Of a stretch of 64,000 nt of DNA, positions 4,275 through 46,257 are shown piece after piece. Origin of the DNA: a virus; IMG/VR virus record IMGVR_UViG_3300036823_000301, positions 10,424-74,423 of that record. One strand, 5' to 3'. The notes under the pieces are model-generated. The model did no database searches. It had not been told where the DNA came from and worked only from the letters and a program-made list of their open reading frames with translations. How positions within the stretch are numbered: position 1 is the first letter of the stretch; every line of letters starts with the position of its first letter. The translations under genes and the position numbers were made by a program.

Positions 4275-5129
4275 ATGACAACAACTGTAAGAGTTATAGC
4301 AGACAGCTATTACGATCACGGTGTTCGCCTCACAACATTACAATTGAAATACCCGCGCTTCATTCATCCGGAATTTTTGACTCATCGTGTGTTTTCAAGA
4401 AACGCGAGCTCTTCGCGGGCAACCCCTGTTGAGCGTATCATCGAATCGCTTGAGCGCGATCCAGTACGTCCATGTGAATGGGGTAAAAACAGACCTGGTA
4501 TGCAGGCACATGAAATTTTCGACCCTCTCGAAGTTTTTGAATTGGAGAGTTTATGGATAGACGCCATGGCCGAGATGGTTCGTGTGGCCAAGAATATGGT
4601 AGCTCGTGGTGTACACAAATCCATCGTGAATCGACTATTGGAGCCATGGTCCCATATCAATGTGATTGTGACATCGACAGAGTGGTCAAACTTTGAAGAA
4701 TTGCGTTGCCATCCAGACGCCGCACCGGAAATGCAAGAATTGGCTCAAGCCATTCGTGATGAGATGGTGTTAAGTGGCCCACAAATTCTACATGCTGGTG
4801 AATGGCATATTCCATATGTCAACTTGATTGAACGCAGTCAGCTGAATCTACAGGCACAGTTGAAAATAAGTGTGGCTCGCTGCGCACGTGTGTCGTTTTT
4901 GACACACGAAGGCAAAGTACCTCAAACTGCTAAGGATTTGGAGCTTTACGATCGTTTGGTTGGTGCGAAGCCGCTGCATGCCAGCCCATCCGAACATCAA
5001 GCTACCCCTGATCCGACGAATGCTCACTGTTCCGAGCATGGTAATTTTCGTGGCTGGCGGCAATTCCGCAAAATTCTGGAGAAAGATTCGACACTTTTAG
5101 CTTTACAGCAGACCGCCATAGCAGTATGA
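4275..5129 (+). CDS. thyX: FAD-dependent thymidylate synthase
   Basis: THRVFSRNASSSR ThyX motif; NRLLEPW; SVARCARVS; HASPSEHQA. Confidence 0.93.
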   Translation: MTTTVRVIADSYYDHGVRLTTLQLKYPRFIHPEFLTHRVFSRNASSSRATPVERIIESLERDPVRPCEWGKNRPGMQAHEIFDPLEVFELESLWIDAMAEMVRVAKNMVARGVHKSIVNRLLEPWSHINVIVTSTEWSNFEELRCHPDAAPEMQELAQAIRDEMVLSGPQILHAGEWHIPYVNLIERSQLNLQAQLKISVARCARVSFLTHEGKVPQTAKDLELYDRLVGAKPLHASPSEHQATPDPTNAHCSEHGNFRGWRQFRKILEKDSTLLALQQTAIAV

Positions 5130-5130
5130 A
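5102..5130 (+). promoter_or_regulatory. Putative sigma70-like promoter for the Y RNA array (TTTACA-N17-TATGAA)
   Basis: The -10 box ends ~5 nt before the 5' stem of the first RNA. A similar TTTACA-N17/18-TAnnAA occurs at 8242 and 16285. Confidence 0.5.
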
Positions 5131-5134
5131 GTCT

Positions 5135-5268
5135 GTGTCGAGTCGGATGAGGTTGATTATCCTTTTGGCGGACGAGGTCGAAGGTTCGAGTCCTTCTCCT
5201 AGGGTAAATCCTAGGGTAGCTCAGCTGGTAGAGCGCGCGTATATCAACTTTGAATTTTTACTCGACAC
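5135..5268 (+). ncRNA. yrlA: YrlA-type Y RNA with circularly permuted tRNA-like domain
   Basis: Closing stem GTGTCGAGT/ACTCGACAC. Inside, in order: T arm GAAGG-TTCGAGT-CCTTC (5180-5196), loop-closed acceptor-like stem (5197-5216), D arm TA-GCTC-AGCTGGTA-GAGC (5217-5234). Lies directly upstream of a Ro60 gene. Confidence 0.92.
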
Positions 5269-5283
5269 TGAAGTTTGTTTGTT

Positions 5284-5350
5284 GGTGACAGTCGGATGAG
5301 TTCGTTTATCGCTAGGATGATCGCGAATTCATAAAATACTTACTGTCGCT
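5284..5350 (+). ncRNA. Minimal Y-RNA-like RNA 2 (no tRNA domain)
   Basis: Outer stem GGTGACAGT/ACTGTCGCT; same AGTCGGATGAG, TTATC and TTACT motifs as RNA 1; inner stem ATGAGTTCGT/GCGAATTCAT. Confidence 0.8.
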
Positions 5351-5357
5351 CTAAATC

Positions 5358-5434
5358 GTGATGCTAGTCGGGTAGTGTCGTTTATCAGTTATCAACTGAT
5401 CCAACGTGTGACATTAAAGACTTACTAGCATCAC
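5358..5434 (+). ncRNA. Y-RNA-like RNA 3 (apical hairpin)
   Basis: Perfect 11-bp outer stem GTGATGCTAGT/ACTAGCATCAC; AGTCGG, TTATC and CTTACT motifs; inner stem TAGTGTCGT/GTGACATTA; apical hairpin ATCAGTT-ATC-AACTGAT. Confidence 0.8.
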
Positions 5435-5439
5435 TTTAC

Positions 5440-5478
5440 AACGGCCCGGACAACTAGCCCCTCTGTCCGGGCCGTTTT
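5440..5478 (+). terminator. Intrinsic terminator/attenuator between the Y RNA array and Ro60
   Basis: 13-bp perfect inverted repeat AACGGCCCGGACA/TGTCCGGGCCGTT ending in TTTT. Confidence 0.7.
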
Positions 5479-5500
5479 GATTCTATCGAAGGAATAGAAG

Positions 5501-7138
5501 ATGACCAACGTGTATGTGAAGAACCGTAAGTCCGTTCTGACACCGCAGAACCAGCCGATTCCAGGCCGTGAAGCTGAAATGGTGCCGAATAATGCCGGCG
5601 GCTACAGCTTTGAGCTGGATGATTGGGAACGTTTGAATCGCTTTTTGATTCTGGGTAGTGAAAAAGGTACTTATTATGTAGGCCAAGAAAAACTTAAAGA
5701 GCAAAATGCGACCTGTGTGATTCGCTGCATCAAAGCGGATGGTGTGCGCGTTGCTGATGCCGCTGCGATGATCAATATCTCTAATCGCACGCCGAAGGTT
5801 GACCAGCAGCTGTTTGTTCTGGCTTTGTGCTTAAAGCATGGGGACATCGCTACCCGACGTCGTGTAGCGGAGCTGGTGCCATCAGTTGTCAGAATTGGTA
5901 TGCATTTGCTGCATTTCGCGGCGATGGTGGATTCGCTTGGTGGCTGGGGAAACCTCAAAAAGCGGATCTTTGCTGACTGGTTTCTAAACAAGTCGCCGGA
6001 TGATGTGGCATTTCAGATCCTGAAGTACCGGAATCGGGATGGGTGGACCATGCGCGATATCCTGCGTCTGGCGCATCCTAAACCAGAATTTTCCGGCCAT
6101 ATGGCGTTGTTTGCATGGGTCACCGGTAAGCTGACAAATCTTGACCATCTACCCCGAATCATCGCTGATTATCTTGATGTGACGACAGGCACCTTCGAGA
6201 CCCCTGTTCAGCAAGCGCTGGCTGGCATTGCCAGGGGGCTACCACGTGAGTGCCTACCAACGGAGGCACTAGCGGATAAGGCCGTCTGGAGCCGGTTGCT
6301 AAGGCTCACGCCGCCACATGCCTTAATCCGGAATCTCGCAACGATCACGGCCAATGGCACCATTGTCGCCGGGAATGCTGACGCGTGCTATGTGGTCGAA
6401 CGTTTGGAAGATGCCGGGTCTTTGGCGCGGGCACGGGTGCACCCATTCGCGCTCCTATTGGCGGCGCTCATCTATAGGCAAGGACACGGATTCAAAGGCA
6501 CGTTGAGCTGGCTCCCCCTGCCATCTGTTGTGGGTGCATTAGACAATGCTTACGACGCTGCCTTCGCCACGATCCTGCCGACGAACAAGCGGATCTTGAT
6601 CGGAGTGGATACATCAAGATCGATGAGCGGTTCTTGCACAGGGACTCCGATCGACTGTGCCACGGCAGCGGCTGCGATGGCGATCACGTTGGCCAGAAAC
6701 GAACCTGCGGCAACTGTCGTGCGGTTTGATACCTGTGTCAGATCTATCCTACCGGTGACTCTTCGTACCGGAATCAGCGATTTAAGATCGACGTCAGGGG
6801 GAGGCACCGACATATCCGCTCCAATCCGTTGGGCCTCTGGCGACAAGAGTGTATCAACGTCACGTTGGGGCCAGCGTGACGAGGGCTTAATGAGCGAAGT
6901 GAGGATATTCGACGCTTTCATCATATTGACTGATAATGAGACATGGGCTGGATCTGGTCATCCTTCACAGGCCCTGGTGGAATACCGTAAGAAAGTCAAT
7001 CCACAAGCCAAGCTAATTTGCTGTTCGATGGCCGCGAACCATGCCAACATTGTTGACCCGGAAGATGGTGGATCGTTCGGCACCGCCGGGCTTGATGCCC
7101 ATTTACCAAATTTGGTCAGAGACTTTTTGAGCTCTTGA
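5501..7138 (+). CDS. rsr: Ro60/Rsr (TROVE + vWA) ribonucleoprotein
   Basis: NNAGGYSF, RLNRFLILGSEKGTYY, KYRNRDGWTMRDILRLAHPKP, ALIRNL, RARVHP, MIDAS DTSRSM, GGTD and TDNETW motifs. Confidence 0.96.
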   Translation: MTNVYVKNRKSVLTPQNQPIPGREAEMVPNNAGGYSFELDDWERLNRFLILGSEKGTYYVGQEKLKEQNATCVIRCIKADGVRVADAAAMINISNRTPKVDQQLFVLALCLKHGDIATRRRVAELVPSVVRIGMHLLHFAAMVDSLGGWGNLKKRIFADWFLNKSPDDVAFQILKYRNRDGWTMRDILRLAHPKPEFSGHMALFAWVTGKLTNLDHLPRIIADYLDVTTGTFETPVQQALAGIARGLPRECLPTEALADKAVWSRLLRLTPPHALIRNLATITANGTIVAGNADACYVVERLEDAGSLARARVHPFALLLAALIYRQGHGFKGTLSWLPLPSVVGALDNAYDAAFATILPTNKRILIGVDTSRSMSGSCTGTPIDCATAAAAMAITLARNEPAATVVRFDTCVRSILPVTLRTGISDLRSTSGGGTDISAPIRWASGDKSVSTSRWGQRDEGLMSEVRIFDAFIILTDNETWAGSGHPSQALVEYRKKVNPQAKLICCSMAANHANIVDPEDGGSFGTAGLDAHLPNLVRDFLSS

Positions 7139-7368
7139 TGATAACTAACCCAGTGAAAACCTTAAAGGTTTTCGAAATTGAATGGCGATCACGGGCTTAT
7201 CTTATGGCTATCAATGCGAGAGATTTGAGCAAACAGGCATTGCAAAATGCTAAAAACGTCGCTAGCCTTGAACTTGCCGGTGCGTTGCGCCAGCGCGTTA
7301 TCGATGACCTGGATGATTTGTTGAAAATTAACAAATCAAAATCGAAGAGAGGACGGGATGATGGTTGA
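7135..7368 (+). CDS. Hypothetical protein
   Basis: Overlap-coupled to rsr and to the next ORF. Confidence 0.55.
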   Translation: MMITNPVKTLKVFEIEWRSRAYLMAINARDLSKQALQNAKNVASLELAGALRQRVIDDLDDLLKINKSKSKRGRDDG

Positions 7369-7987
7369 TGGCATTGAAGCGTTGGCTGTAGCTGATAATT
7401 TTGTAACCAAGCGGAGTAGGGTTAAAAACCCTAAGAACATTGTTGCAACACAACACCTTTTCCCAAAAGATTTAATATTTAAGATAATGATGAAACGAAA
7501 TGGTGTGATGTATGGCTGGAAAACAGCTTATGTGGCCGCATCTCAAGTAGATGGTTTTCAGAAGGTCACCTTAGCGGAGATAAGGCTCTGGTTATACACC
7601 AAAAAGATTCCGCGGTGGGCTATAGATCAAGTTGATCAAATGACTTTTCAAAAAATTGACAGAATAGCTCCACAAGCTTGGACAGTCCTGGAGCAGCACT
7701 TCTTGGAAACTATCTATCGGGAAGATCCAGGTCGCCCCGATAAGTTGCTTTCGGAGATGTGCACACGTAAATTCAGGAGGACCATCACTACGAATGCAAT
7801 CAAGGGTGCATTGTACCGTTTGCGGGAAGCGTATATTCTACCACGTGATGAGAAAAGGATAAGGCACAGTGGGCAATTCAGTGATGATACCGAGCTTGAG
7901 CTTGACCGAGATCGACAGCATTCTCAGTTCTCCAGGCGGGGGGGACAATCTGAAAGTCTTGGGCTCGATGCGGATCAACGTGCATGA
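7358..7987 (+). CDS. Putative DNA-binding protein, weak GcrA-like HTH in C-terminal half
   Basis: WTVLEQHFLETIY...ITTNAIKGALYRL resembles GcrA WT..R...L..LW...VTRNAVIGKVHRL; by-eye similarity only. Confidence 0.45.
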   Translation: MMVDGIEALAVADNFVTKRSRVKNPKNIVATQHLFPKDLIFKIMMKRNGVMYGWKTAYVAASQVDGFQKVTLAEIRLWLYTKKIPRWAIDQVDQMTFQKIDRIAPQAWTVLEQHFLETIYREDPGRPDKLLSEMCTRKFRRTITTNAIKGALYRLREAYILPRDEKRIRHSGQFSDDTELELDRDRQHSQFSRRGGQSESLGLDADQRA

Positions 7988-41991: not shown

Positions 41992-42661
41992 TTAGCTCAA
42001 AGTGATCGTCAACGCTCCGCTCGCAATGACCAGCGAGTCTCCAATTCCTAAAGTTCTCACGGTTGAAAGCAAACCGTACCAAAGATAAGAACCATTAGTG
42101 CTGGAGGCAGTATCCCAAATTGAAATACCAGATACAGAGCATGCACCGGACACCGGGCCGAAGGTCATGGCCACCGTATTGGAGGCAGAACCGGCAGGCG
42201 AGGCGGCAGGGGCAAACGACACAGTTTGCCGCGTGATACCAGACCCCAGAGCGATTTCTGAAGCTGATACCGAAGACGGCGAACCCAACGAAATATTGAC
42301 ACCCATTGCACCAGGGCGCGTTGGAGTCGCCCCGAGCAGAACCCAATCAAGCATCCTATGTGTTCGCGACAGGCCGTTAATCCTATCACCGCTCTTTCGA
42401 GCTGCTGCATATCCCTATGCAGAGCAGATCATGTCATCACCCATTGCATCAAATGGGGCCGGGCGCTTCCACTCACTTGAGTGTACTCCCTCGCGGGATG
42501 ATCGTTGCACCTTCCGTCTTGCGACGGCTTGGCTCAAAGTTAACCGTTCTGGTACTTCTTTGAGTTCACCCGGTTCTTCGATAGATTTCTCAATCTAAAG
42601 GGCCAAAACTCATTCGTTACGGAGTCTTTGCCTTTTGGGCATACGTGCTGATACCAGCCAC
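41992..42661 (-). CDS. Small fibre-associated structural protein, spliced: join(42661-42630, 42355-41992), ~131 aa
   Basis: AGGAG RBS + GTG gives MAGISTYAQKA, which joins MLDWVLLGATPTRP...GDSLVIASGALTITLS and restores the S.Y.....LD N-terminus I recall for this family. Confidence 0.82.
42356..42629 (-). ncRNA. ORF-less group I self-splicing intron (~274 nt; boundaries +/-1 nt)
   Basis: On - strand: P2 TAGATT-GAGA-AATCTA; P3 CCGGGTG/CGCCCGG; P4 CTCAAAG/CTTTGAG; P6a CCGTC-GCAA-GACGG; R GGTGCAACGATCA and S GACATGATCTG forming P7; P7.1 TCCC-GCGA-GGGA; P7.2 CACTC-AAGT-GAGTG; P8 CCCATT/AATGGG; three P9 hairpins; terminal G. Confidence 0.88.
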
Positions 42662-43920: not shown

Positions 43921-46257
43921 TCAAGGTGATGCGAATGCGATTGACGGACCCCAGTCACTGGTTCCAGCGCTGGTGATGACTTGAACTTGCGCGAGGTAAA
44001 AATCGCCAGATACGGCGCCAGACAGCGAAAGCTGCCAAGTTGTTGAGCTCGTCTGTGTAGGACTTGAAATGAATGTAGCATAACCGGGTGATAGAGAATC
44101 AAACGTCCAACGAAAGTTGAATGTTGGAGTTCCTGTCCCAACCCATGTCCAGGCTATCAGCGGCTTTCCAGCAGTTCCTCCAGCTAAATGGACATTTGTA
44201 GGAACTGGAATGATTGTGAAAACAGGTCTTGTTGTAAATGGGCTCGTCGTAAACGGTCCGTATGTCTGCGACGTCGGTCCCGTCCCCTGTGCATTTGTTG
44301 CCTGGACCTGGAACCATACTGGGATGCTGTCAAATGACGCCGACACAAGATAATTTGTTAACGCTTGAAAATTGACGACACCCCAGCCTGTGCACGCATC
44401 CCACCCGTTGTTAACAACAGGATAGCCTGGAGATCCATTGCTACTATTATTCGTGCCACTACCGGATTGCGTACCGATATCGCGAATGGTTAATAAAAAC
44501 GGAATTGGGTCATTAACCTGAGCCCATACAGAGTTTGCATCACCAGGAGATTTTTCATAAAATAAGCCAGAACTGTTCTGTTGAAAAAGCAAATCAATGG
44601 GCGGGCTCATGTATAATAAATACACGACGTTTGCTGTTGTCGCATCCACGGTCCCATGGTTTGCGATTTGCAAACCATTATTTGCTGACGTAACGAGGCT
44701 AAAAACATTACCGTGGGTGTCAGTAATATTGACACCGGCCCCATTAGCCGCTTGCGCGTTCCACAGACCTTGTTGAATATGATATATTGTTGGATTAAGA
44801 AACCCCAACGGACGCCCCAACGCTTGCATGACTCTGGCAAGGCAACCGGCATACTGCGGTGCTGTCACACTAGTTCCACCAATCACACCGAACGCGCCGT
44901 TAACTTCGGTATTGTAACCGCTGAATGAGCTAGCATTCCCTGCTACATCAGGCATTCCACGCCCTATAAAACCAAAATCCGACTGTGCTGGCATATTTGG
45001 GACGTAGATCGTCTGATAAGTAGGTCGTGGAAAAATTCTGCTTATGCCACCCCCTGTCGCACCGATACTATTTGGGTTATCGTTCCAAACCCATTCAGTG
45101 AATGTCGGATATTGACCGGTGCCGATGCTAGCGACTGTGGTCCCACCTGTATTTAAGATCCAAGGGCTGCCACAAGGATAAGCTATCCAATTTTCCGTTG
45201 TTGATGGAAAGTAATTTGAAGATCCTTCATCACCAACAGCAGAGATGATTGTCACCCCAATAAGTGCAGCGTCCTCATGATAAGTCTCACATGCATTAAA
45301 AAAGGGAATGTATGTATTCTGTTCAAAATCTTCCGTAAAAACACTTGATATTGAAAATAGAGTTACAACAGGATCACCTGGATTGGGATGCAACATTCGT
45401 GCAAGCAACTCTGGATAATTTTCAGCTGAGCGATCAGCAAAATAAATCGCTAAAGTTTTCACACCTCCGGAAAATCCCAAGATCATAACATTATCGACGT
45501 TACCTTCTCCAGCATCTCCACTATTTGGATCAGATCCATTTGTGCTCCCATCGACAGACACGAACACTGTGCTCGTCGTCGTGCCAGCAGAAGCTAAACC
45601 CCAATTGTTCAAAGTATTTTGAATTTCTGTAGCATTCTGAAGCCAACCATAAAGACCAATAACTTGCTGATTAGCGCTTGTTGTCAATCCGCTGTAAATC
45701 CCAGATATCTGTTGTGGTGTAAATGAAACACCATTAGGTAGATCGGCTGGAGGAACTGTAGCGCGAACAGCTTTATATTCTGTATGCACACCGAGAATCG
45801 CATGCAGCATCGGATGAATATGGTCCGGAACGTGAAATCCCGTATGCGTCCGAAATTTGTAGCGGCCTAACCTTGGGTGTTCCTTTTCATAATGATGAAT
45901 TTCAGTATGAAATGCCTTTTCCAACTGATCGACCGAAGCGTTAACGACAACCATACGGCGGGAGCCGTGTGATTCACACCAACTGAAGCCAGATGCTTTA
46001 CAGAAACTCTCTATCGCTCTGATCTCATCAGGATGAGCACCATACTTCTGTTGAAAGTCCGGATCTTGCCGTGTCCGAGGTGGGCAGCCCAAGAACTCAT
46101 AAAACTCCGGAATCGGATCGTGCCCCGGCCGACGGCGAAGGTGAAACTTCACACGGATAGATTCATCTTTAGGGGCACGGCCGACATAAGTCGTCCTCGC
46201 AGGATCAGGGGGGAACCTATGCGCTGGGGCTAAAGCTTTGTATCCGATAGGGGGCAT
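43921..46257 (-). CDS. Sedolisin (S53) serine peptidase with propeptide, inserted Trp-module and C-terminal FN3 elements
   Basis: Propeptide, E...D (GEGNVD), AVGDEGS, GGTT, RGMPDVAGNA, GGTS, GWDACTGWG. Start at TAATG overlap (the ORF track starts at 46278). Confidence 0.9.
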   Translation of the reverse strand: MPPIGYKALAPAHRFPPDPARTTYVGRAPKDESIRVKFHLRRRPGHDPIPEFYEFLGCPPRTRQDPDFQQKYGAHPDEIRAIESFCKASGFSWCESHGSRRMVVVNASVDQLEKAFHTEIHHYEKEHPRLGRYKFRTHTGFHVPDHIHPMLHAILGVHTEYKAVRATVPPADLPNGVSFTPQQISGIYSGLTTSANQQVIGLYGWLQNATEIQNTLNNWGLASAGTTTSTVFVSVDGSTNGSDPNSGDAGEGNVDNVMILGFSGGVKTLAIYFADRSAENYPELLARMLHPNPGDPVVTLFSISSVFTEDFEQNTYIPFFNACETYHEDAALIGVTIISAVGDEGSSNYFPSTTENWIAYPCGSPWILNTGGTTVASIGTGQYPTFTEWVWNDNPNSIGATGGGISRIFPRPTYQTIYVPNMPAQSDFGFIGRGMPDVAGNASSFSGYNTEVNGAFGVIGGTSVTAPQYAGCLARVMQALGRPLGFLNPTIYHIQQGLWNAQAANGAGVNITDTHGNVFSLVTSANNGLQIANHGTVDATTANVVYLLYMSPPIDLLFQQNSSGLFYEKSPGDANSVWAQVNDPIPFLLTIRDIGTQSGSGTNNSSNGSPGYPVVNNGWDACTGWGVVNFQALTNYLVSASFDSIPVWFQVQATNAQGTGPTSQTYGPFTTSPFTTRPVFTIIPVPTNVHLAGGTAGKPLIAWTWVGTGTPTFNFRWTFDSLSPGYATFISSPTQTSSTTWQLSLSGAVSGDFYLAQVQVITSAGTSDWGPSIAFASP

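What the first reader, a model, noticed from the sequence alone, without database searches (positions are those of the whole stretch)
5102..7138. Phage Ro60 locus with an array of three Y RNAs sharing a scaffold but carrying different apical domains
Seen: three tandem stem-loops with different, covarying outer stems share AGT-CGG(A/G)T, an inner stem, TTATC, and a 3' TTACT. RNA1 carries a permuted tRNA mimic (T arm, closed acceptor stem, D arm), RNA2 a short loop and RNA3 one hairpin. A promoter-like element precedes the array, and a strong hairpin separates it from rsr. Established: bacterial Rsr binds Y RNAs, YrlA RNAs mimic tRNA, and some phages encode them. Inference: one Ro60 loaded with interchangeable RNA adaptors, for example as decoys for host tRNA-targeting defences or as nuclease tethers. 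RNAs 2 and 3 would probably be missed by YrlA models and may define a minimal Y RNA class. No rtcB is present in the window.
Basis: partly seen in the sequence, partly recalled or inferred. Interest (0 to 1): 0.8.

Follow-up and report, generated by a model that had tools for sequence, protein, structure and literature searches.

The report
Phage Ro60 gene with three Y RNAs
A soil phage carries the gene for the RNA-binding ring protein Ro60 preceded by three small partner-RNA (Y RNA) genes, one of them a tRNA look-alike; the features are real, but this layout proved common around Ro60 genes in phages and bacteria, so it is an ordinary example of a known system.

Summary
Observation confirmed. 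ORF 5501-7138 is a full-length Ro60/Rsr (TROVE + Ro60 vWA; E 1e-88 to solved Ro60). The 370-nt gap before it holds three tandem hairpin RNAs on the same strand: 5135-5268, 5285-5349 and 5358-5434. All three share the scaffold: outer stem, GUCGG(A/G)U, inner stem, UUAUC, then (U/C)UUACU. A strong hairpin follows at 5440-5476.

RNA1 is a YrlA-type tRNA mimic (T arm, closed 7-bp acceptor-like stem, D arm). It scores 33 bits on Rfam YrlA, below the cut-off of 69, as do the matches in the cultured mycobacteriophages checked. RNA2 and RNA3 are invisible to the YrlA model.

A covariance model of the shared scaffold, built only from other loci, finds RNA2 and RNA1 and, weakly, RNA3. It gave 129 matches in 80 independent bacterial Ro60 loci, all on the rsr strand, with 96% pairing and strong covariation. 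Tandem sets of 2-5 are common, including in the cultured actinophages checked.

The literature already describes two or more Y RNAs per Ro60 locus: YrlA plus hairpin-type YrlB/Yrn2, and two in Thermus phage phiLo. This scan has reported such arrays before on other DNA.

Verdict: new member of a known kind. The adaptor/tether reading rests on analogy. The tRNA-decoy reading is unsupported. No expression data exist.

The parts
5102..5130 (+). Weak sigma-70-like element (TTTACA, 17 nt, TATGAA) overlapping the end of the upstream thyX-like ORF (stop codon 5127-5129). It would start transcription near 5137, inside RNA1's outer stem.
   Evidence: Read from the sequence. Not called by the consensus scan. 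Unverified; co-transcription with the upstream RNR/thyX genes followed by processing is equally possible.
5135..5268 (+). Y RNA 1, YrlA type. Outer stem 5135-5143/5260-5268; GUCGGAUG 5142-5149; inner stem 5150-5157/5243-5250; UUAUC 5157-5161; T arm 5180-5196; closed 7-bp acceptor-like stem 5197-5216; D arm 5219-5234.
   Evidence: Rfam YrlA RF02553 33.3 bits, E 1.6e-5, full-length alignment, below the gathering score of 69. Scaffold model R2, built without window rows: 26.2 bits, E 6e-4 over 64 kb. Consensus fold with covariation in 16 homologues. ARAGORN calls no tRNA.
5285..5349 (+). Y RNA 2, a short hairpin type (YrlB-like). Outer stem 5285-5292/5342-5349; CGGAUG 5293-5298; inner stem 5298-5304/5324-5330; UUAUC 5306-5310, which pairs with GAUGA to cap the hairpin.
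   Evidence: MFE -25.9 kcal/mol, z -4.9. R2 27.5 bits, E 2.9e-4 over the whole window, the best hit in 64 kb. No Rfam match at E<=10.
5358..5434 (+). Y RNA 3, a short type with an extra apical hairpin (5384-5400). Outer stem 5360-5368/5424-5432; CGGGUA 5369-5374; inner stem 5375-5379/5410-5414; UUAUC 5382-5386. The most divergent of the three.
   Evidence: MFE -29.0 kcal/mol, z -4.7. R2 gives only 16.4 bits (E 0.0016 in an 801-nt search with filters off) and does not report it in the whole-window search. The second letter after CG is G; none of 61 independent bacterial modules has G there.
5440..5482 (+). 13-bp G+C-rich hairpin followed by UUUUGAUU: a terminator-like or 3'-end-protecting structure between the RNA array and rsr.
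   Evidence: Fold -25.2 kcal/mol, z -5.7. The terminator scan missed it because its loop is 11 nt. It is not conserved in relatives: terminator-like hairpins in 8 of 68 loci against 5 of 73 control segments.
5489..5493 (+). Shine-Dalgarno-like AAGGA, 7 nt before the rsr ATG.
   Evidence: Read from the sequence.
5501..7138 (+). rsr, encoding a 545-aa Ro60 orthologue (TROVE/HEAT ring plus vWA domain with the DxSxS metal site).
   Evidence: Pfam vWA_Ro60 1.2e-39 and TROVE 6.5e-23. PDB Ro60 9nen 1.2e-88, D. radiodurans Rsr 2nvo 2.1e-84, Xenopus Ro60 1yvp 5.4e-83, near full length. D370, S372 and S374 are invariant in 33 relatives.

Best explanation
The locus is a phage copy of the Ro60/Y RNA ribonucleoprotein system. 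Three Y RNA genes lie in tandem directly upstream of rsr on the same strand, spaced about 10-17 nt apart.

Shown:
- Each RNA has the module that, in characterised systems, binds Ro60. This is a terminal helix made of the RNA's 5' and 3' ends. It is followed by an asymmetric internal loop whose 5' strand carries G(U/C)CG(A/G)A(U/G), the local form of the published GNCGAAN0-1G and vertebrate GGUCCGA motifs. A second helix capped by UUAUC follows.
- This module is conserved and covaries in hundreds of Ro60-linked RNAs.

Inferred:
- The RNAs are made as one precursor, from a weak promoter or by read-through from the upstream nucleotide-metabolism genes, and are cut into separate RNAs.
- Each RNA binds the outer face of the phage Ro60 ring.
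- The variable apical part decides what the particle contacts. RNA1 presents a tRNA-shaped elbow (T and D arms, closed acceptor stem). RNA2 and RNA3 present small hairpins.
- By analogy with D. radiodurans, S. Typhimurium and Thermus phage phiLo, the likeliest job is to tether or gate a host 3'-to-5' exoribonuclease such as PNPase during infection, reshaping RNA decay or quality control.
- The hairpin at 5440-5476 ends or attenuates the RNA transcript before rsr. This feature is particular to this phage.
For: Protein identity.

RNA1 as YrlA type.

Shared module:
- My descriptor (CG, N10-11, UUAUC, two stems) gives 185 hits on the rsr strand. The opposite strand gives 11 and shuffled sequence gives 28, over 162 sequences.
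- 137 of 177 non-overlapping hits lie within 1 kb upstream of rsr, against 7 inside rsr.
- Model R1 finds 126 matches at E<=0.01 in 160 loci, all on the rsr strand.
- Covariation on 80 matches: 93.5% of cells paired against 59.7% in shuffles, 16 of 16 pairs with double changes, score 0.90 against 0.25 (shuffled) and 0.11-0.16 (slid).

Independent tests:
- Model R2, which contains no window sequence, picks RNA2 and RNA1 as the only significant hits in 64 kb. It picks RNA3 in a local search.
- In 80 bacterial loci never used for training, R2 gives 129 matches, all on the rsr strand. 67 loci have at least 1, 43 at least 2 and 14 at least 3.
- Those matches show 96.4% pairing and a covariation score of 0.92. 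G, CG and UUA(U/C)C are near-invariant in unpaired positions.

The same layout occurs in cultured phages BearBQ, Farewell, Kenrey and Dandelion.

Published precedent:
- Multiple Y RNAs bound by one Rsr, and processing from one precursor: PMC4201824.
- Phage Ro60, Yrl RNA and host PNPase complexes: PMC12135203.
Against: - There is no expression or binding evidence. No RNA run holds this DNA, and the phage is uncultured.
- RNA1 is below Rfam's YrlA gathering score (33 against 69 bits).
- RNA3 is a weak match to the independent scaffold model (16.4 bits). It has a G where no independent member has one.
- All three window RNAs lack the usual GG before UUAUC.
- The promoter is weak.
- The PNPase-tether function is pure analogy. 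No nuclease or RNA-repair partner is encoded nearby, and the neighbours of rsr are not conserved.
Confidence: 0.8

Rival explanations
1. RNA2 and RNA3 (and perhaps RNA1) are not stable trans-acting RNAs. They are cis elements of the rsr leader: Ro60-binding sites for feedback control, or processing or attenuation signals of one long transcript.
For: In most relatives the last module ends about 55-130 nt before rsr with no terminator between. Terminator-like hairpins occur in 8 of 68 loci against 5 of 73 controls. The modules therefore often lie in the rsr 5' leader. The promoter in the window is weak.
Against: In the window a strong terminator-like hairpin separates the array from rsr. In some loci the array lies downstream of rsr: 15 modules, for example five in L129. 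Upstream Y RNAs in M. smegmatis and D. radiodurans accumulate as discrete Rsr-bound RNAs cut from precursors (PMC4201824). The two roles do not exclude each other.
Confidence: 0.1
2. RNA3 (possibly also RNA2) is a decaying duplicate of a Y RNA gene that no longer binds Ro60.
For: RNA3 scores only 16.4 bits on the independent model. Its CGGGUA has a G not seen at that position in 61 independent modules. Its UUAUC is partly drawn into an apical hairpin.
Against: Both stems are intact, with a fold z-score of -4.7 and 0 of 200 shuffles as good. It keeps GUCG, UUAUC and CUUACU in register with RNA1 and RNA2. One natural variant, seen in a single low-depth contig, falls in an unpaired base.
Confidence: 0.1
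3. The RNAs act as decoys that soak up host tRNA-targeting defence nucleases.
For: RNA1 has tRNA-like T and D arms and a 7-bp acceptor-like stem. YrlA RNAs are recognised by tRNA enzymes: TruB, DusA and, with a 7-bp stem, RNase P (PMC4201824).
Against: RNA1 has no anticodon loop. The anticodon stem continues into the Ro-binding stalk. The acceptor stem is closed by a 6-nt loop with no CCA end, as in the solved YrlA structure (bioRxiv 10.1101/312249). It therefore cannot mimic substrates of anticodon- or 3'-end-cutting nucleases. RNA2 and RNA3 have no tRNA features. The same RNAs are common in bacterial chromosomes, which does not fit a phage-specific counter-defence.
Confidence: 0.07

Closest known systems
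YrlA Y RNAs with Rsr/Ro60 (Rfam RF02553; S. Typhimurium, M. smegmatis, mycobacteriophages; Chen et al. 2014, PMC4201824; structure in bioRxiv 10.1101/312249)
   Same: RNA1 has the same topology: terminal helix, asymmetric loop with a GNCG-type motif, second helix, then T arm, closed acceptor-like stem and D arm. It is encoded next to rsr on the same strand. The acceptor-like stem is 7 bp, as in M. smegmatis YrlA.
   Different: It scores 33 bits against the Rfam cut-off of 69. The YrlA matches in the two cultured mycobacteriophages checked, Farewell and Dandelion, score about 36 bits. The 5' motif reads GUCGGAUG, not GNCGAAN0-1G. No rtcB/rtcA is linked.
Hairpin-type bacterial Y RNAs: S. Typhimurium and M. 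smegmatis YrlB, D. radiodurans Yrn2 (PMC4201824)
   Same: RNA2 and RNA3 are second and third Y RNAs beside the tRNA-like one. [quoted passage not shown] As in M. smegmatis, they lie between YrlA and rsr.
   Different: The published examples were found by immunoprecipitation and 'eluded bioinformatic discovery'. No Rfam model exists and none matched here. Binding is untested.
Thermus phage phiLo Ro60 with Yrl1 and Yrl2 (PMC12135203, PDB 9KOP/9L5Y)
   Same: A phage Ro60 gene with tandem Y-like RNAs immediately upstream. Stem, bulge, stem architecture with a CG(A/G)A motif. The proposed use is capture of host PNPase.
   Different: Three RNAs rather than two, and one is a full tRNA mimic. The phage Ro60 here was not compared with phiLo Ro60. 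Its closest solved relatives by sequence are 9nen, 2nvo and 1yvp.
Vertebrate Y RNAs (hY1, hY3, hY4, hY5) with Ro60
   Same: Several Y RNAs share one Ro-binding stem built from the 5' and 3' ends (GGUCCGA ... CUUGACU; here GUCGGAU ... CUUACU) and differ in the loop that recruits partners.
   Different: Vertebrate Y RNAs have no tRNA-like domain, are transcribed by Pol III as separate genes, and are not linked to the Ro60 gene.

Membership tests
Ro60 / Rsr (TROVE-vWA ring protein) | TROVE (HEAT-repeat ring) domain followed by the Ro60-type vWA domain, full length | tested here: met
   PF05731 6.5e-23 and PF25045 1.2e-39. Near full-length alignment to solved Ro60 and Rsr chains, E 1e-88 to 5e-83.
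Ro60 / Rsr (TROVE-vWA ring protein) | MIDAS-type DxSxS motif in the vWA domain | tested here: met
   D370, S372 and S374 are invariant in the 33-sequence alignment A1.
Ro60 / Rsr (TROVE-vWA ring protein) | Binds Y RNA on the outer ring surface | not testable with these tools
   Needs EMSA or RIP.
YrlA (RF02553) | Score at or above the Rfam gathering threshold (69 bits) | tested here: not met
   33.3 bits, E 1.6e-5, full-length alignment. YrlA matches in relatives, including the two cultured mycobacteriophages checked, also score 35-40 bits. The model is therefore too narrow for this clade. I call RNA1 'YrlA-type', not an Rfam-certified member.
YrlA (RF02553) | T arm, closed acceptor-like stem-loop and D arm in that order, mounted on a stem that replaces the anticodon arm | tested here: met
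   cmscan alignment. RNAalifold consensus of 16 homologues shows compensatory changes in 6 of 7 acceptor-stem pairs and conserved GGUUCRAnUCC and GCUC...GAGC.
YrlA (RF02553) | 5' motif GNCGAAN0-1G (Chen et al. 2014) | tested here: inconclusive
   The window has GUCGGAUG, one mismatch (A to G). CGGAUG is the single commonest hexamer at this site in 144 modules. G occurs at that position in 13 of 61 independent modules. It is a tolerated variant but not the literal motif.
YrlA (RF02553) | Encoded near rsr on the same strand | tested here: met
   233 nt upstream of rsr, + strand.
Hairpin-type Y RNAs (YrlB / Yrn2-like) | [quoted passage not shown] | tested here: met
   Folds of RNA2 and RNA3. Match to scaffold model R2 built from other loci: RNA2 27.5 bits, RNA3 16.4 bits.
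Hairpin-type Y RNAs (YrlB / Yrn2-like) | Sequence homology to published YrlB or Yrn2 | not tested
   No S. Typhimurium, M. smegmatis or D. radiodurans sequence was available by name. R2 does hit four tandem modules upstream of rsr in a Mycobacterium MAG (L229).
Hairpin-type Y RNAs (YrlB / Yrn2-like) | Rsr-bound and Rsr-dependent accumulation | not testable with these tools
   Needs immunoprecipitation or a Northern blot in an rsr mutant.

The most novel reading that the evidence does not exclude
RNA2 and RNA3 belong to a large family of minimal Y RNAs that has no catalogue entry. Its signature is: terminal helix, G(C/U)CG(A/G)A(G/U), helix ending in GG, then a near-invariant unpaired UUA(U/C)C.

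The tRNA-like YrlA RNAs share the same module. Together they form tandem sets of 2-5 beside most Ro60 genes in bacteria and phages.

The near-invariant UUAYC, which the 2014 paper that defined the motifs does not mention, would then be a second recognition element common to all Y RNA types. It could contact Ro60 itself or a universal partner. It may correspond to the conserved UA kink seen in the YrlA crystal structure.
Probability: 0.45. Interest if true: 0.45.

Novelty: new member of a known kind. Interest (0 to 1): 0.3.

Why it matters
For this window, little changes. It adds one more uncultured soil myophage to the several hundred phage records that carry Ro60. It also shows that its Y RNA set (one tRNA mimic and two short hairpins) follows a common pattern.

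The useful by-product is general. A small covariance model of the shared Ro-binding scaffold finds the non-tRNA Y RNAs that earlier homology searches missed. All 255 matches at E<=0.01 (126 with R1, 129 with R2) in 240 Ro60 loci lie on the rsr strand.

Multi-Y-RNA sets turn out to be the rule. The four cultured actinophage records inspected leave these RNAs unannotated.

That gives a practical route to annotate Y RNAs. Tractable phage-host pairs, for example mycobacteriophages on M. smegmatis, could be used to ask what phage Ro60 particles do during infection.

Tried and rejected
- blastn of the locus against 50,697 phage records found no match.
- A single-protein scan of IMG/VR found no relative. 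A profile was needed.
The roughly 80 closest Ro60 relatives (45-59% identity) could therefore not be fetched. Only three close loci were obtained: L082, L083 and L166.
- The look-up of sequencing runs listed no RNA holder, only four soil DNA runs, one of which may be the source. Expression could not be examined.
- Read laying gave DNA contigs only. It showed one T>C at 5409 in a single low-depth contig, at an unpaired base of RNA3. This is uninformative.
- The promoter scan called nothing on the + strand.
- I tested whether a terminator between array and rsr is a family feature. It is not.
- I tested whether the genes flanking rsr (77-aa, 209-aa, thyX-like, helicase) travel with it in relatives. 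They do not. The 77-aa and 209-aa proteins have no Pfam or PHROG match.
- The review PMC10870794 (Sim et al. 2020) is not held. Its statements on Y RNA numbers could not be checked.
- I considered and rejected RNA1 as a true or split tRNA gene: ARAGORN finds none and the arm order is permuted.
- The R2 partial hit at 45073-45093 (13 bits, E 0.68) is taken as chance.
Full report
**What is there**

The window is 64 kb of a 74,423-bp IMG/VR virus record rated complete. It carries tail sheath, baseplate hub and wedge, tape measure, tail fibre, DNA polymerase I and a methyltransferase. It also carries ribonucleotide reductase and a weak ThyX. It is therefore a contractile-tailed phage. The DNA occurs in soil metagenomes.

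ORF 5501-7138 (+) is a full-length Ro60/Rsr. It has the TROVE and Ro60-vWA domains. It aligns end to end with solved Ro60 and Rsr structures at E 1e-88 to 5e-83. The vWA DxSxS site is invariant in relatives.

**The three RNAs**

| RNA | Span | Outer stem | 5' loop | UUAUC | 3' end of loop |
|---|---|---|---|---|---|
| RNA1 | 5135-5268 | GUGUCGAGU / ACUCGACAC | CGGAUG | 5157-5161 | UUUACU |
| RNA2 | 5285-5349 | GUGACAGU / ACUGUCGC | CGGAUG | 5306-5310 | CUUACU |
| RNA3 | 5358-5434 | GAUGCUAGU / ACUAGCAUC | CGGGUA | 5382-5386 | CUUACU |

- RNA2 and RNA3 fold far better than shuffles (z -4.9 and -4.7, 0 of 200 shuffles as good). RNA1 is at z -2.2.
- A 13-bp hairpin with a U-run follows at 5440-5482 (z -5.7).
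- The proposed promoter (TTTACA, 17 nt, TATGAA, 5102-5130) is weak, and the scan did not call it.
- ARAGORN finds no tRNA.

**RNA1 is a YrlA-type tRNA mimic**

- Rfam YrlA aligns over its full length. The order is T arm, closed acceptor-like stem, UA, D arm.
- The score is 33.3 bits (E 1.6e-5), below the gathering score of 69.
- The same sub-threshold scores (35-40 bits) are seen for YrlA matches in relatives, including the two cultured mycobacteriophages checked. The low score reflects the model's breadth and does not argue against RNA1 being a YrlA-type RNA.
- A 16-sequence alignment gives a consensus of outer stem, 5-bp T stem, 7-bp acceptor-like stem and D stem. Six of the seven acceptor-stem pairs show compensatory changes.

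**RNA2 and RNA3 tested against other loci**

The YrlA model does not see them even at E<=10.

*Loci collected.* A profile of the Ro60 protein brought in 80 IMG/VR loci, 80 metagenome loci and 80 bacterial genome loci.

*Simple descriptor.* It requires CG, N10-11, UUAUC, a 7-nt outer stem and an inner stem.
- It gave 185 hits on the rsr strand, 11 on the other strand and 28 in shuffles.
- Of 177 non-overlapping hits, 137 lie within 1 kb upstream of rsr, 15 within 1 kb downstream and 7 inside it.
- 34, 23, 17, 4 and 1 loci have 1, 2, 3, 4 and 5 modules respectively.
- Short modules of 55-70 nt are the commonest class.
- 'One tRNA-like plus two short' is the commonest three-module make-up.

*Covariance model R1.* It was built from 37 short modules.
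- It found 126 matches at E<=0.01, all on the rsr strand.
- On 80 of these, 93.5% of cells pair against 59.7% in shuffles.
- All 16 pairs show double changes.
- The covariation score is 0.90, against 0.25 for shuffled and 0.11-0.16 for slid structures.

*Covariance model R2.* It was rebuilt from those 80 matches and contains no window sequence.
- In the whole 64-kb window it reports RNA2 (27.5 bits, E 2.9e-4) and RNA1 (26.2 bits, E 6e-4) as the only significant hits.
- It reports RNA3 only in a local, unfiltered search (16.4 bits, E 0.0016).
- On the 80 bacterial loci, never used in training, R2 gives 129 matches, again all on the rsr strand. 67 loci have at least one, 43 at least two and 14 at least three.
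- Those matches show 96.4% pairing and a covariation score of 0.92.
- Unpaired positions are near-invariant: G, then CG, then (A/G)A(G/U); and after the inner helix GG, then UUA(U/C)C.

*How the window's RNAs fit.* They are somewhat divergent members.
- None of the three has the usual GG before UUAUC.
- RNA3 has a G where no independent module has one.
- CGGAUG itself is the commonest hexamer at its site.

**Cultured phages**

All four cultured phages have the modules in the unannotated gap upstream of their Ro gene:
- Gordonia phage BearBQ, Mycobacterium phage Farewell and Streptomyces phage Kenrey each have two modules.
- Mycobacterium phage Dandelion has three, in the order short, YrlA, short.

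In total 357 phage records encode a Ro60 relative.

**What is particular to this phage**

- The terminator-like hairpin between array and rsr is not a family feature (8 of 68 loci against 5 of 73 controls).
- The genes around rsr are not conserved with it.
- No rtcB exists anywhere in the genome.

**Comparison with the literature**

Chen et al. 2014 (PMC4201824):
- They found YrlA near Ro60 in 254 bacteria and 22 phages.
- M. smegmatis YrlA and YrlB lie upstream of rsr and come from one precursor.
- D. radiodurans has four small RNAs upstream of rsr.
- The authors proposed that the extra Y RNAs let Ro60 form particles with a wider range of partners.
- They also said that these extra RNAs eluded bioinformatic discovery.
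- They do not mention UUAUC.

Thermus phage phiLo has two Yrl RNAs upstream of its Ro60, and these assemble with host PNPase (PMC12135203).

The solved YrlA lacks an anticodon loop and a free CCA end, and it has a conserved UA kink (bioRxiv 10.1101/312249).

The 'minimal Y RNA class' is the YrlB/Yrn2 type. The tRNA-decoy idea is hard to reconcile with an RNA that has neither an anticodon loop nor an acceptor end.

**Earlier notes of this scan**

Phage Ro60 genes with tandem Y-type RNA arrays have been reported many times on other DNA. A canonical-Ro60 case with four RNAs was judged already known (e1-5466585). A note on this same genome independently read RNA1 as YrlA (e1-6099341).

**Limits**

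- No RNA data exist for this phage, and the host is unknown.
- The alignments used for pair counts were fitted to the model, which inflates pairing somewhat. The complete strand bias, the position next to rsr and the conserved unpaired motifs do not depend on that.

**Verdict**

The features are real, and this is a genuine Ro60 / Y RNA locus with one YrlA-type and two hairpin-type Y RNA genes, RNA3 being the least certain. It is an ordinary new member of a known kind.

The likeliest function is inferred, not shown: Ro60 particles whose Y RNAs tether or gate a host exoribonuclease during infection.

Noticed in passing
window 42405-42621 (-): Group I intron, Rfam RF00028 54.7 bits (above the gathering score of 50), E 4e-11. 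It lies in the structural-gene arm of the phage.
   Followed up: no
L145 1401-2351; L129 3144-3215; L083 223-296; L163 461-1019: Y RNA arrays often adjoin or interleave with true tRNA genes. In L145, four tRNA hits lie in or directly upstream of the array, and there is a sub-threshold Deinococcus_Y_RNA match (46.8 bits, cut-off 80). L129 and L083 each have a tRNA adjoining the array. Four tRNA genes are annotated upstream in phage Farewell. This fits co-transcription and processing by the tRNA machinery, as published for D. radiodurans.
   Followed up: partly
L162 1195-1414; L163 1081-1299; L164 582-800; L165 1062-1409: GenBank records of cultured phages BearBQ, Farewell, Kenrey and Dandelion leave the Y RNA genes upstream of their 'Ro-like RNA binding protein' unannotated. 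Model R2 finds 2, 2, 2 and 3 modules there.
   Followed up: yes
L129 2585-3137: In this metagenome contig five scaffold modules lie downstream of rsr instead of upstream, followed by a tRNA. The array position relative to rsr is therefore not fixed.
   Followed up: partly
window 7135-7987 (+): The two ORFs right after rsr (77 aa and 209 aa, overlapping start and stop) have no Pfam or PHROG match. They have no counterpart next to rsr in 160 related loci.
   Followed up: partly
window 4275-5129 (+): The ORF upstream of the array is only a weak ThyX match (39.5 bits, covering profile positions 60-185 of 191). Its last codons overlap the putative promoter of the RNA array.
   Followed up: no
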